Source: Escherichia coli (GTDB lineage: Bacteria > Pseudomonadota > Gammaproteobacteria > Enterobacterales > Enterobacteriaceae). Taken from it: a stretch of DNA of 64,000 nucleotides. The translations under genes and the position numbers were made by a program. The stretch lies in NCBI RefSeq assembly GCF_046105845.1, contig NZ_CP151004.1, one strand, 5' to 3'. Of the stretch, positions 39,785 through 43,393 are shown piece after piece (position 1 is the stretch's first letter; the number at the start of each line of letters is the position of its first letter). The notes under the pieces are model-generated. The model saw nothing but the letters and a program-made list of their open reading frames with translations. It did no database searches and was not told where the DNA came from.

Positions 39785-42700
39785 TTATAGCTGACGTTGA
39801 TCCAGACTGCTATATATCGCCTTTATTTCATTTTTTACGCCTTCGCCACGGTACACCAAAGACGTATCGTATCGTTGATATTTATCTTCTCGCGCAGCGC
39901 TGAACCAGTTAAAAGATCCAACGCACAACAACTCTTCATCCCTAATCACAATTTTGCTGTGAACGCGATTCACCAATTTTGTAGCAATGCCCATATTATT
40001 GAGCTTTTCGACTGCATCATTTAGAAGATGCAGTTTCTCCTGGCGCTTATCATCATCGATATGCGCAATATTGCAGTTTTTATCCGTTACCACGGTAATA
40101 TCAATACCTCGGGAGCGGGCCAGAGCCATTGACGTCAGAAACCCCGTTTGCTCCACTTTTTGCCAGGATAACCAGGGGGAAATAATCGTGATCTTCTGTT
40201 GAGCTGCGGCCAGAGCATTATTCAAGAATTCATCATGCTGCTCCACACCATGCAACGTTGAAATATGTGTCTGTGCGGAAATTAAATCCTGTCGTTTCTG
40301 AAACTCAAATTGCAACGCATTATTATCTGAAGCAAACAGAAATTTTGCCAATAACCCTCGTGGCGAAGATGCGGGCTGCATCTCAATAAGGTCCATATCG
40401 CCAAAGACCAGAAAACTATCCTTAGCGCGTGAGACAGCAACATTGAGGATACTGCTGTTGCTATCAAGAAACCTGCCATCTTCATGTTTTGAGTAGACTG
40501 GGGAAAAGAGAACAATCGCCCTTTCCGCACCCTGCAAGGAGTGCACAGTCCCCACTGTCAGTGAGCCCTCTTCGTCTTTGTCATTAATCTCCAGCTTACG
40601 CAATGACGTTTTGATGGCATTAACCTGCGCCGAAAATGGCGTCACAACACCAACAACTTTGTACAGAGGTTCCCCGTAATGGCGCTCTATATCATCCTTA
40701 TGTGTCGCCAGCCATGCTGCTATTGTTTCAGCTTCAAGAGGGTTATAACGGCTCCCCCCATTTGGCTTCATGCCTCGGCCATCAATATGCAGATATCCCA
40801 TTGCGGGAAAAATCGTCCCTTTTTCCATCCCTCTTTTAGGCTGCAACTTACCGTTATAGCAAAGTGAGTTACAGTAGCCGATGATGTTATTGAAACAGCG
40901 ACGATGCTCATACAGATACATTCCGCGCTCGAACTTGGGATCATACTGGTAGCGGGAGTTGAACTGGGCAACCTGCATTACGCTGCCAGATGCTGCACTT
41001 TTTCCAGACCTACACACATGGGAATATGTATTTATTAACTCTTCCTGAGTGCCACCAGAAAGAATATTCTCCTCAAGCATATTGCCCATATCAGTAACGG
41101 GTAGACAATTCCAGATTGGAGCTATTTGCTCCGTATCGCCAATCACCAGTGCTTTCTTCGCCAATGCAAAAGAGGCCGCAGCAACCTCCGGGAGTACCTG
41201 CCCTGCTTCATCGACAATCAGTAAATCGGCAAAGTTATATAAATAATTATTATCCGATGTTCTGTCCCCACCAAAAGATTTTCTCCTGTTCATATGGTAA
41301 GGCAACATGTAGCAGGTCATTACCACACAAGGAGTAAGTTTCATTCTTCTTAGCCAACGAGCCTCGGCGATAGTTGTCCCGGTAATTCCTTTTTCTTTTT
41401 GCAGGTTATCAATTGCCGCCATATCCATCAGCCAGCGACCTTCCCAATAATGAGTCGCTAACAAGAACGCTGGAAAACGAATCTGAGTATCGGCAAGCTC
41501 GTCCGCTCCGGCGAGGTTCAGCTCATCGTCTCCCCTGTAGCCCAGAGCATAAGTCAACCCGCGCCATTGTTTTGCTGCTTCCATTTCGCTTCGGGCTATG
41601 TCCTGCGCAAAGTTGATATTCTGTTGGCACGCCGCCTGCTCTTGTTGCGCTTTAGCGATCAAACTATCGATAAATTTATCAATATCTTCGGAACAATTTC
41701 CCTGGAACGCTGTCATTCTTGCGCCGAACGTAGAGTCCAGGAAGAGGTTAATCTGGTAATGGCGTTTAGCACGAACAGCAGGGAGCCATGACAAAAATGC
41801 ATACATAAGCGACTCATCGGCACGGTATTGCTGCCACTGCTTTTTACCTCTGGCTAAAAGTGAAATTTCGTTGCCAATATTGAGAAGAAGTGTGTTTTTG
41901 TCCTGAAGATACTGGTCGAGATTCTCACTGATGACTCGCTGTTCATGGCGGATATCATTGAGTCTGCGCCATGCAGGTTCGATTTGCTGAAGTTGCATAA
42001 CCTGTGAAGTTAAACGTTCATGCAAAAGCGTCACTACATGCTCTGGCGAATTGCACTCTCCAGCTCCAAACGCCGCCTCCGCTTTTTCAAGGTAAAAGGC
42101 CCGGGCTTTTTCCAGATATTCCAGGGATTCAACGCGGTTAAAAAAATCTTCAGTCTGGTATTTCTTCGCTGCCTCAACCTGACGGCTTTTAGACGGAAAA
42201 TAAGCGCCATAGCTTATTACTTCCGGCAACCAACGCCCAGACATTACGCCAAAACCAGTAGAGAAATCTTTTCCAAAGGCTTCAATAATATTGGTGACGG
42301 CCTGATTGTTAGTCGATGTGGCAATAATTACAGGAGGTTCAGTTTGATTAAGTGCGGCTCTTGTCCATTCGGTGGCAATAATAGAAAGCACCAGCGTAGT
42401 TTTACCCGTTCCCGGAGGACCGTTGACAGCGAGCATATCACCCTGCTGTTGAGTCAGATAATGGCTCAGGGCATCGCGCTGCGCCACTGCCAGCGGAAAC
42501 TTATCGCCGGAATGCCCCAGACGTTCGCAGAACATCGCATTCTTAGCGAGAAGTGGCTCCACTGGAGCCATTTCGTTTGAGGCAAAACGCGTTAATAGCG
42601 GAACCTTAACCTGGCTCATCAGAAGATGGTCATACATAGGCAGGATATGAACGCTGGCCCCTACATGCTGGCTAGCTTTAACAATATAACCGTATCCAGC

Positions 42701-43393
42701 CCGTTCGTATGGCTCAGATGTAGCGACCCAATTTCCAGCGACGTTTCTTAAAAGGTTATCTGACTGTTGTAGATAATTTTGCCAATGCTGACGATACCTG
42801 GCATGGCGTTCCGCTTTCTCTTCGTCAGTTTCTTCGTAATGTTCTGGTTCATCTTCATTAATGGTGGCTGTGTTATGCGTGGTTTTGTATTTGTCATATT
42901 GCGCCAACTCACCAATAGAAAAATGACCGGAAGGGAGAGGTTCAAGCAGATCGCGGGGAATAGTGGCTGAAGCGGCAGGAAACAAAAAACCTTCCCTATT
43001 CAGAAGAGCGGAGGTAACCAGTGGCGTGATAATTGCGGGTGCACCTGCCATTTGCTCTTTGCCATGCTTTACTATGCGGTTCCACACTTGGGGCCGTAAC
43101 ACGACTTCAACGGTTTTTACCGACTCCCCTTCACCGTCAAAAAATGCCCGAATAGTCTCGTCATCCAACTGCCCTGCGGTGATATTTATCCATCGAATGA
43201 ATGAATCTGTATCTTTACGTGAAAACGTTCCTTTACCAGATTCGGCGTCAGCTAAGGAGTTGCGCCAGTATGAAGTGAATCCCAATGTATTGCTGTCCAT
43301 TTTCCATTCCGTGACATAATAGAAATCATTGATTTCATTGATGTAAATATTACTTATGATTAAACATTGTCCACGATGCGAGCACGATCGCAA
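39785..43393 (-). CDS. SF1 (Upf1/DNA2-like) helicase fused to a C-terminal PLD-family (HKD) nuclease; Mokosh type II-like defence protein; likely intact form of the K-12 yjhR remnant
   Basis: Walker [10 protein letters not shown] (around 42400..42425), Walker [10 protein letters not shown], helicase motif [15 protein letters not shown]-terminal [19 protein letters not shown] = HxK-x4-D-x6-GSxN (around 39904..39960); start may be the internal Met at 43303. Confidence 0.7.

What the first reader, a model, noticed from the sequence alone, without database searches (positions are those of the whole stretch)
39785..43393. Helicase-PLD nuclease fusion consistent with a Mokosh type II defence gene
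A single 1202-aa protein combines an Upf1/DNA2-like SF1 helicase core ([13 protein letters not shown], later helicase motifs) with a C-terminal HKD motif (HSKIVIRD-x6-GSFN). This matches the architecture reported for Mokosh type II antiphage proteins (the MOV10/Zucchini-like pairing). The K-12 gene at the equivalent position, yjhR, is a short truncated helicase remnant, so this strain appears to retain the ancestral functional gene.
Basis: partly seen in the sequence, partly recalled or inferred. Interest (0 to 1): 0.75.

Follow-up and report, generated by a model that had tools for sequence, protein, structure and literature searches.

The report
Intact Mokosh type II defence gene (yjhR)
This is an intact copy of a known single-gene anti-phage system, Mokosh type II (a helicase fused to a nuclease); E. 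coli K-12 carries only a broken remnant of it, called yjhR, so the finding is correct but already catalogued.

Summary
The ORF is real. The likely product is 1171 aa, starting at the ATG at 43300. The 1202-aa figure is the maximal ORF from an upstream TTG.

It matches PADLOC's MkoC (Mokosh type II) profile end to end (E=0, 1471 bits). It is 63% identical, and colinear over all 1171 aa, to the verified E. coli Mokosh II protein of Millman et al. 2022. All SF1 helicase motifs and the single HxK(x)4D(x)6GSxN motif are intact. dN/dS against a 94%-identical allele is 0.13.

Predicted-structure searches place the helicase core with Upf1, Senataxin, IGHMBP2 and DNA2, and the C-terminal domain with Nuc, NucT and Zucchini.

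The gene lies in a roughly 16-kb defence island between nanS and tRNA-Leu (leuX). The K-12 claim holds: K-12 yjhR is the last ~408 codons with a 1-nt deletion. However, that remnant derives from a different allele (98.2% versus 91.6% identity). Only 12 of 5426 complete E. coli genomes carry the gene intact.

RefSeq already holds this exact protein as "helicase YjhR", and a 2022 preprint already treats yjhR as a fused Mokosh.

Side observation: a ~95-nt upstream leader is conserved across genera and was found almost only in front of mkoC.

Verdict: correct, ordinary, low novelty.

The parts
39785..43300 (-). mkoC (yjhR) coding sequence: 1171 aa plus the stop codon at 39785-39787. This is the Mokosh type II helicase-PLD nuclease.
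   Evidence: ORF. PADLOC MkoC PDLC03924, E=0, 1471 bits, profile positions 1-1135 of 1136. 100% identical to RefSeq WP_053290669.1 'helicase YjhR'. 63% identical to the verified EcMokosh II.
43301..43395 (-). Conserved ~95-nt upstream leader/promoter region that travels with mkoC. Blocks: TTGCGATCGYGCTCGCA, CGTGGACAAT, TTAAYCAT, TTTATAT, AAATCAAT. It holds a promoter-like TGGACA-16-AATATT site at 43373-43346.
   Evidence: Mean pairwise identity 0.72 across six lineages, against 0.40 at 4-fold sites and 0.06-0.09 by the same measure in the adjacent flanks. Alignments. Of 57 metagenome motif hits, 48 are followed by an MkoC-type ORF, which starts 26-27 nt downstream. Promoter scan.
42491..43300 (-). 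Family-specific N-terminal domain (aa 1-270) with no Pfam match. It contains the conserved YWRNSLAD and IPRDLLEP motifs. A role as sensor or nucleic-acid-binding module is inferred, not shown.
   Evidence: No Pfam domain in this stretch. Near-invariant Y11, D18, R116, L119 and P121 in 91 sequences down to 28% identity. Modelled confidently, pLDDT mostly 80-95.
40301..42490 (-). Upf1-like SF1 helicase core (aa 271-1000). RecA1 is split by a ~280-aa all-helical insertion (aa 371-653, nt 41342-42190) and is followed by RecA2.
   Evidence: Pfam AAA_11 split into 273-344 and 691-729, plus AAA_12 at 795-969. AF2 model pLDDT 90.8. Best PDB matches are Senataxin 8ftm, Upf1 2xzl/8rd3, Aquarius, IGHMBP2 4b3g and DNA2 5ean.
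42395..42421 (-). Walker A / motif [10 protein letters not shown] (aa 294-302).
   Evidence: Translation. 100% conserved in 121 close homologues. K300 near-invariant in 91 diverse sequences.
41198..41218 (-). Walker B / motif II, IVDEAGQ (aa 695-701).
   Evidence: Translation. 97-100% conserved. D697, E698 and Q701 near-invariant.
39788..40288 (-). C-terminal single-HKD PLD-family nuclease domain (aa 1005-1171).
   Evidence: Pfam PLDc_2, E=3.6e-10. Profile against PDB: Nuc 1byr 2.5e-6, NucT 6ehi, Zucchini 4ggj. Domain model pLDDT 96.2, with Foldseek top hits NucT, Nuc and, at rank 9, Zucchini.
39905..39961 (-). HKD active-site motif, HSKIVIRD-x6-GSFNW (aa 1114-1132).
   Evidence: Translation. 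D1121, G1128 and W1132 are invariant and H1114, K1116, S1129 and N1131 near-invariant in 91 sequences. Only the non-catalytic R1120 is variable.

Best explanation
The gene encodes MkoC, the single-protein Mokosh type II anti-phage system, in intact form and with its own conserved promoter/leader.

Shown here:
- Architecture: a family-specific N-terminal domain, a Upf1-like SF1 helicase whose RecA1 domain is split by a long helical insertion, and a C-terminal single-HKD PLD nuclease of the Nuc/NucT/Zucchini type.
- All catalytic residues are intact.
- The gene is under purifying selection.
- It is a full-length homologue of the verified E. coli Mokosh II.
- It sits in a leuX-associated defence island.

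Inferred from published work on the 63%-identical EcMokosh II:
- The protein acts alone.
- Defence by Mokosh systems needs both the ATP-binding site and the HKD site.
- The known spectrum is narrow (ssDNA microvirus SECphi17). In vitro the enzyme cleaves ssDNA and nicks plasmid DNA but does not cut dsDNA.

The most likely mechanism is that the helicase loads on single-stranded phage nucleic acid, either ssDNA genomes or replication intermediates. It then translocates using ATP and presents the strand to the PLD domain, which cleaves it through a phospho-histidine intermediate.

Canonical PLD nucleases build one active site from two HKD motifs. MkoC has only one and is reported to be monomeric. 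I therefore infer transient, substrate-induced pairing of two molecules. That step is speculative.
For: - PADLOC MkoC E=0 over residues 32-1200 of the long ORF. Hits to MkoA and MkoB are only partial.
- Pfam AAA_11, AAA_12 and PLDc_2, with no kinase domain.
- 63% identity and 78% similarity over 1171/1171 aa to the verified MkoC.
- Motifs I, Ia, II, III, IV, V, VI and HKD are 95-100% conserved in 121 homologues and near-invariant down to 28% identity.
- dN/dS is 0.13 overall and 0.09-0.17 per domain.
- AF2 model pLDDT 90.8. The helicase core resembles Senataxin, Upf1, IGHMBP2 and DNA2. The PLD domain resembles NucT, Nuc and Zucchini.
- Island context: a phosphorothioate-DNA restriction endonuclease, an Mrr-like remnant, ISEc31, a three-gene methyltransferase / type IIG cluster, a split P4-type integrase and tRNA-Leu(CAA).
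- Literature: Mokosh II definition and a verified E. coli system (10.1101/2022.05.11.491447). ssDNA-only cleavage, SECphi17-only defence and monomer by mass photometry (10.1101/2025.07.10.664194). yjhR treated as a fused Mokosh (10.1101/2022.12.12.520048).
Against: - This allele has never been tested. At 63% identity to the tested protein, its phage range and even its activity may differ.
- The gene is intact in only 12 of 5426 complete E. coli genomes and has been truncated at several different breakpoints in about 1700. Selection to keep it is therefore weak or episodic.
- The physiological target (ssDNA, RNA or R-loops) and the trigger are not established for any Mokosh II.
- The reported monomeric state sits awkwardly with a single-HKD catalytic site.
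Confidence: 0.85

Rival explanations
1. It is Mokosh II, but it acts on RNA rather than ssDNA. On this reading the Upf1-like helicase scans phage transcripts or RNA/DNA hybrids and the PLD domain cuts RNA, as Zucchini does with MOV10L1 in the piRNA pathway.
For: The helicase core's best structural matches are RNA helicases: Senataxin-ssRNA, Upf1-RNA and IGHMBP2-RNA. Zucchini is among the PLD matches. [quoted passage not shown] The 2025 cleavage panel did not include RNA.
Against: EcMokosh II cleaves ssDNA in vitro and defends only against an ssDNA phage. DNA2, a DNA enzyme, is an equally good helicase match. Nuc and NucT, which are DNA nucleases, are the closest PLD structures.
Confidence: 0.25
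2. It forms a two-gene system with the convergent neighbour at 38545-39474, a sulfur-binding-domain/HNH restriction endonuclease for phosphorothioated DNA.
For: The same class of gene (PF26340 + PF13391) lies tail-to-tail with mkoC in Enterobacter. An HNH_2 gene lies upstream of the verified mkoC in PCN033. K-12 carries remnants of both genes side by side.
Against: - The Enterobacter neighbour is only 32% identical, while the two MkoC proteins are 74% identical.
- There is no such neighbour in Serratia, Salmonella or the loci with more distant true MkoC relatives, L010-L023.
- The endonuclease gene is full length in 1705 of 5426 E. coli genomes, against 12 for mkoC.
- Strain 2017-02-2CC has an intact mkoC beside a degraded endonuclease.
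- Judging by its stored 5' end and 3903-nt length, Millman's verified construct held mkoC alone.
Confidence: 0.04
3. It is an intact-looking but silent or decaying gene with no current function in this strain.
For: Most E. coli carry only truncated remnants with at least three different breakpoints. The adjacent island is degraded: an Mrr-like remnant, an IS insertion and a split integrase.
Against: - The 3516-nt reading frame is uninterrupted.
- dN/dS is 0.13 against the 94% allele, with 207 nucleotide differences.
- All catalytic residues are intact.
- The upstream leader is conserved and intact.
Confidence: 0.08
4. It is a housekeeping DNA repair or replication helicase-nuclease (DNA2-like or RecD-like), not an immune gene.
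For: Weak NCBIfam and PDB similarity to DNA2, RecD and IGHMBP2 helicase motifs. RefSeq calls it only 'helicase YjhR'.
Against: - All NCBIfam hits fall far below their cut-offs.
- No DNA2-type nuclease domain was detected.
- Distribution is patchy, 12 of 5426 genomes intact.
- It lies in variable islands next to integrases, IS elements, restriction-modification genes and toxin-antitoxin genes in several genera.
- A 63%-identical protein is a verified defence system.
Confidence: 0.03

Closest known systems
Mokosh type II MkoC of E. coli 5-366-08_S1_C1 (Millman et al. 2022, system SG150; matches WP_000344089.1 of strain PCN033 over the 399 N-terminal residues held)
   Same: Same length (1171 aa) and colinear, with 63% identity and 78% similarity. 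It has the same N-terminal domain, split Upf1-like helicase and single-HKD PLD domain. It also shares the conserved upstream leader.
   Different: It sits at a different chromosomal locus, in a CP4-like island beside the type I R-M genes rather than between nanS and leuX. 37% of residues differ, and this allele is untested. The verified-type 5' region (≥80% of a 399-nt query spanning the promoter and first 73 nt of the gene) is in 143 of 5426 E. coli genomes, against 12 with this gene intact.
E. coli K-12 yjhR pseudogene
   Same: Same locus and orientation, next to nanS and the remnant of the phosphorothioate-DNA endonuclease. It is homologous over the last 1226 nt.
   Different: K-12 lacks codons 1 to ~763, which include Walker A and B, and has a 1-nt deletion. 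It is 98.2% identical to a second intact allele (strain 2017-02-2CC) and only 91.6% identical to this one.
Mokosh type I (MkoA kinase-helicase plus MkoB HTH-PLD)
   Same: Related helicase C-terminal half and PLD domain. PADLOC gives MkoA 1e-33 and MkoB 4e-15, both partial.
   Different: Type I is two genes and includes a Ser/Thr kinase domain. Here there is one polypeptide, no kinase, and a distinct N-terminal domain.
Eukaryotic Upf1-like SF1B helicases (Upf1, Senataxin/Sen1, IGHMBP2, Aquarius, DNA2, and by family MOV10/MOV10L1)
   Same: The fold of the two RecA domains and all helicase motifs. RecA1 is interrupted by an inserted domain, as in Upf1.
   Different: Only 11-14% sequence identity. 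The insertion here is a ~280-aa helical bundle, and there is a fused PLD nuclease. No CH or zinc-finger domain and no DNA2-type nuclease were detected.
Single-HKD PLD nucleases Nuc (1byr), NucT (6ehi) and Zucchini/PLD6 (4ggj)
   Same: Same fold (query-normalised TM-score 0.54-0.69) and the same HxK(x)4D(x)6GSxN motif.
   Different: Those enzymes are stand-alone obligate homodimers. Here the domain is fused to a helicase, and the homologous EcMokosh II is reported to be monomeric.

Membership tests
Mokosh type II (MkoC) | Full-length match to the MkoC profile HMM | tested here: met
   PADLOC PDLC03924, E=0, 1471 bits, protein 32-1200 against profile 1-1135 of 1136.
Mokosh type II (MkoC) | One polypeptide with a COG1112/Upf1-like helicase followed by a C-terminal PLD nuclease | tested here: met
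   Pfam AAA_11, AAA_12 and PLDc_2 in that order. Structure matches.
Mokosh type II (MkoC) | No Ser/Thr kinase domain and no separate MkoB gene (this distinguishes it from type I) | tested here: met
   No kinase hit in Pfam. MkoA and MkoB profiles match only partially. The neighbours are unrelated genes.
Mokosh type II (MkoC) | Intact ATP-binding site (Walker A and B) and intact HKD site, both reported as required for Mokosh defence | tested here: met
   [16 protein letters not shown] and [13 protein letters not shown] are present and 95-100% conserved in the family. The requirement is stated in the literature.
Mokosh type II (MkoC) | Sequence homology to an experimentally verified member | tested here: met
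   63% identity over 1171 aa to the verified system SG150.
Mokosh type II (MkoC) | Confers phage resistance when expressed, and loses it in active-site mutants | not testable with these tools
   Needs plaque assays. No experimental data on this allele appeared in the Mokosh/yjhR papers retrieved.
Upf1-like SF1B helicases | Two RecA domains carrying motifs I-VI, with accessory domains inserted in RecA1 | tested here: met
   Motifs listed. AF2 model and Foldseek matches to Upf1, Senataxin and IGHMBP2, probability 1.00.
Upf1-like SF1B helicases | 5'-to-3' ATP-dependent translocation on single-stranded nucleic acid | not testable with these tools
   Requires biochemistry.
DNA2 nuclease-helicase | N-terminal PD-(D/E)XK nuclease with an Fe-S cluster, fused to the helicase | tested here: not met
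   Similarity to DNA2 is confined to the helicase core. The nuclease here is a C-terminal PLD domain.
Nuc/Zucchini-type PLD nucleases | Single HxK(x)4D(x)6GSxN motif on the PLD fold | tested here: met
   Motif at aa 1114-1131. Profile hits to 1byr, 6ehi and 4ggj. Foldseek E values 1e-11 to 3e-9.
Nuc/Zucchini-type PLD nucleases | Homodimerisation to assemble one active site from two HKD motifs | not testable with these tools
   Not modelled here. The literature reports EcMokosh II as a monomer by mass photometry.
Hypothetical MkoC + SBD-HNH two-gene system | Conserved co-occurrence of the two genes | tested here: not met
   The neighbour is absent in Serratia, Salmonella and the distant MkoC loci. 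The endonuclease is intact in 1705 E. coli genomes against 12 for mkoC.

The most novel reading that the evidence does not exclude
Two readings remain open.
1. The ~95-nt leader was found almost only in front of mkoC and is far more conserved than synonymous sites from E. coli to Aeromonas. It could be a dedicated cis-regulatory element, such as an operator or a 5'-UTR switch, that controls when Mokosh II is made.
2. This divergent allele (63% identical to the only tested one) could have a phage range different from the narrow ssDNA-phage specificity reported.

Either would give a handle on how Mokosh II is triggered, which is unknown.
Probability: 0.3. Interest if true: 0.4.

Novelty: already known. 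Interest (0 to 1): 0.2.

Why it matters
This result mainly serves as correct annotation. The strain carries a probably functional Mokosh type II gene where K-12 and about 1700 other complete E. coli genomes have only a stump.

It offers a natural allele pair (intact and truncated at one locus), and a second allelic lineage, for studying gain and loss of a defence gene at the leuX hotspot.

It does not open a new kind of biology. The system class, its domain logic, a 63%-identical verified member and the yjhR link are all published. The conserved leader is the one element that I did not find described in the papers read here.

Tried and rejected
1. My first per-domain dN/dS gave 6.4 for the PLD segment. 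That was my own out-of-frame slice. Recomputed in frame it is 0.088.
2. A single-sequence PDB search with the PLD domain was not significant: Nuc at E=0.52. A 36-sequence profile and a domain model were needed.
It returned mostly generic SF1 helicases and only about 14 true MkoC relatives, so the neighbour statistics are thin.
4. The two-gene hypothesis with the SBD-HNH endonuclease was considered and rejected.
5. The promoter could not be assigned. TGGACA-16-AATATT scores 9/12, but the region holds no more promoter-like sites than shuffled sequence does. The spacing between the conserved TGGACA and TTTATAT blocks varies by 2 nt among homologues.
6. An RNA-structure reading of the leader got only weak support. 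The consensus energy is -5.95 kcal/mol, and the first inverted repeat is broken in the four leaders of the L091 type (L091, L105, L111, L123). No Rfam family matched.
7. The phage collection holds no real MkoC carriers, only fragments. PHROGs gave only generic helicase hits.
8. No complete E. coli genome in the collection shares this window's junction between mkoC and ISEc31.
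Full report
OBSERVATION

The minus-strand ORF 39785..43393 exists and has no internal stop. It is 1202 aa counted from a TTG.

The real start is almost certainly the ATG at 43300, giving 1171 aa. Four results point that way:
- RefSeq annotates the 100%-identical gene in strain 2017.09.02CC as 3516 nt, 'helicase YjhR', WP_053290669.1.
- The PADLOC profile begins at residue 32 of the long ORF.
- The closest homologues are almost all 1170-1176 aa, and those whose N-terminus was read begin MD.N..GF.SYWRN.
- The 31 extra codons overlap a conserved non-coding leader.

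WHAT IT IS

Against PADLOC the protein matches the MkoC (Mokosh type II) profile end to end: E=0, 1471 bits, profile positions 1-1135 of 1136. The type I components MkoA and MkoB match only in part. Pfam finds AAA_11 split in two pieces (273-344 and 691-729), AAA_12 (795-969) and PLDc_2 (1028-1141). It finds no kinase domain and nothing in the first 270 residues. NCBIfam has no model that reaches its cut-off, which explains the uninformative RefSeq name.

The supplement of Millman et al. (10.1101/2022.05.11.491447) lists one verified Mokosh type II. This is system SG150 from E. coli 5-366-08_S1_C1, with an MkoC of 1171 aa. I recovered the full gene from strain PCN033. The window's protein is 63% identical and 78% similar to it, colinear over 1171 aa with two gap positions.

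In 121 close homologues, helicase motifs I, Ia, II, III, IV, V and VI and the HxK(x)4D(x)6GSxN motif are 95-100% conserved. In 91 sequences reaching down to 28% identity, the key catalytic residues are invariant or nearly so. These are K300, D697, E698, Q701, Q923, R927, R958, H1114, K1116, D1121, G1128, S1129 and N1131.

Against a 94%-identical allele, which differs at 207 nucleotides, dN/dS is 0.13 overall and 0.09-0.17 in each domain. An interim value of 6.4 for the PLD segment was my own out-of-frame slice and should be ignored.

The family is large. There are 1099 clusters at 50% identity with E<=1e-30.

STRUCTURE

An AlphaFold2 model built on the 91-sequence alignment is confident (mean pLDDT 90.8, pTM 0.86). 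It shows four parts:
- an alpha/beta N-terminal domain (aa 1-270);
- RecA1, interrupted by a ~280-residue bundle of long helices (aa 371-653);
- RecA2;
- a compact C-terminal domain.

Foldseek against the PDB places the helicase core with Senataxin/Sen1, Upf1, Aquarius, IGHMBP2, DNA2 and ZNFX1. No Mokosh protein appeared among the solved-structure matches.

A separate model of residues 1005-1171 (pLDDT 96.2) matches NucT and Nuc best. Mouse Zucchini ranks 9th. A sequence profile of the domain also finds Nuc (2.5e-6), NucT and Zucchini.

DNA2 resembles it only in the helicase core.

CONTEXT

The gene lies in a ~16-kb island between the core gene nanS (ends at 38390) and tRNA-Leu(CAA), leuX (54703-54787). 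The island holds, in order:
- a convergent restriction endonuclease for phosphorothioated DNA (38545-39474; NCBIfam NF045808, 438 bits);
- mkoC;
- a terminator-like hairpin (43579-43562);
- the C-terminal remnant of an Mrr-like restriction enzyme (43780-44123);
- an ISEc31 copy;
- three overlapping or abutting methyltransferase / type IIG-like genes (45928-53018);
- a split P4-type integrase.

The SBD-HNH neighbour is not a partner of MkoC.
- A gene of the same class sits tail-to-tail with mkoC in Enterobacter, but it is only 32% identical.
- None is present beside mkoC in Serratia, Salmonella or the more distant loci.
- The endonuclease is intact in 1705 of 5426 E. coli genomes, against 12 for mkoC.
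- Strain 2017-02-2CC has an intact mkoC next to a degraded endonuclease.

K-12 COMPARISON

K-12 matches the window through fimB-nanCMS, then over 248 nt of the endonuclease, then over window 39595-41010. Its yjhR is thus the last ~408 codons. It carries a 1-nt deletion in an A-run and is annotated as a frameshifted pseudogene missing its N-terminus.

About 1700 complete genomes carry such stumps, with at least three different breakpoints. Twelve carry the full gene: five at >=99.9% identity to the window and seven at ~94%.

The K-12 stump is 98.2% identical to the 94% allele and only 91.6% identical to the window's allele. The window therefore holds an intact allele at the ancestral locus, but not the direct ancestor of the K-12 remnant.

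MECHANISM

No experiment exists for this allele. For the 63%-identical EcMokosh II, the literature reports the following:
- Defence by Mokosh systems is lost when the ATP-binding site or the PLD site is mutated.
- Protection was seen only against the ssDNA phage SECphi17.
- In vitro it cleaves ssDNA and nicks plasmid DNA, with no dsDNA cleavage.
- It is a monomer by mass photometry (10.1101/2025.07.10.664194).

I therefore favour an ATP-driven helicase that loads on single-stranded phage nucleic acid and feeds it to the PLD nuclease. RNA or R-loop targeting, as originally hypothesised, is not excluded, because RNA was not in the published cleavage panel. A single HKD motif normally needs a second copy to form an active site. 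Transient pairing on the substrate is my inference.

NOVELTY

[quoted passage not shown] The exact protein is in RefSeq and in a cluster of 471 database sequences. This is a correct call on a known system.

SIDE OBSERVATION

The 95 nt upstream of the ATG are conserved among three E. coli alleles, Enterobacter, Serratia, Salmonella and Aeromonas. Mean pairwise identity is 0.72. The same measure gives 0.40 at 4-fold degenerate sites in the gene, and 0.06-0.09 for the next 95 nt upstream and the 95 nt after the stop codon.

A pattern from this leader found 57 metagenome contigs. In 48 an ORF beginning MD.N..GF.SYWRN (or MD.N.Q.F.S) follows, starting 26-27 nt downstream. In the rest, the contig ended, the gene looked disrupted, or the hit was probably chance. 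No Rfam family matches, and the evidence for RNA structure is weak. The leader defines the upstream edge of the mobile mkoC module and probably carries its promoter and a regulatory site. I could not determine its function.

Noticed in passing
window 43301-43395 (- strand); also L003 ~9230-9326, L009/L004/L006 ~5905-6000, L010 ~4905-5000: A ~95-nt leader upstream of mkoC is conserved across genera: identity 0.72, against 0.40 at synonymous sites and 0.06-0.09 by the same measure in the adjacent flanks. It contains two inverted repeats (TTGCGA..TCGCAA and GAAATCA-A-TGATTTC). Of 57 metagenome motif hits, 48 are followed by an MkoC-type ORF. Its function is unknown.
   Followed up: partly
window 38545-39474 (+): An intact restriction endonuclease for phosphorothioated DNA (ScoMcrA-type sulfur-binding domain plus HNH; NF045808, 438 bits), convergent with mkoC. 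It is full length in 1705 of 5426 complete E. coli genomes, and K-12 has only a 248-nt fragment. Distantly related genes of the same class sit next to mkoC in Enterobacter and E. coli PCN033, but the pairing is not general.
   Followed up: partly
window 43780-44123 (- strand): The C-terminal remnant (aa ~215-329, with a frame break near aa 251) of an Mrr-like restriction endonuclease, cut off by the ISEc31 insertion. The intact homologue lies immediately downstream of the verified Mokosh II gene in strain PCN033 (L003 12970-13959).
   Followed up: partly
window 45928-53018 (+): Three overlapping or abutting genes: a PglX-like/DUF1156-like methyltransferase (596 aa), a second methyltransferase (682 aa) and a 1081-aa type IIG-like restriction-methyltransferase protein. 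Together they look like one restriction-modification-type operon. They were not classified further.
   Followed up: no
window 53267-54787 (- strand): A P4-type integrase split into two overlapping ORFs (53267-53824 and 53751-54662), probably frameshifted, directly beside tRNA-Leu(CAA), leuX (54703-54787). This marks the island's integration site.
   Followed up: partly
L001 and L007 (E. coli strains 2017.09.02CC and 2017-02-2CC): In other genomes with an intact yjhR, the DNA beyond the gene is a P4-like satellite prophage (primase-helicase, Icd-like, Psu, ogr/Delta, integrase at leuX), not the methyltransferase island of this window. In both strains nanS is annotated as a truncated pseudogene, and in L001 an extra HNH endonuclease gene lies next to it. 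No complete genome in the collection shares this window's arrangement.
   Followed up: partly
E. coli complete genomes: There are two intact yjhR allele lineages about 6% apart at one locus, and at least three different truncation breakpoints among ~1700 genomes (query coverage 1-1226, 1-1100/1103 and 497-1226). This indicates repeated independent decay of the gene.
   Followed up: partly
window 44163-44200 (+): A sub-threshold Rfam match to the isrC Hfq-binding sRNA (32 bits; gathering score 39) at the edge of the scanned stretch, inside the ISEc31 element. It is probably IS-associated sequence.
   Followed up: no
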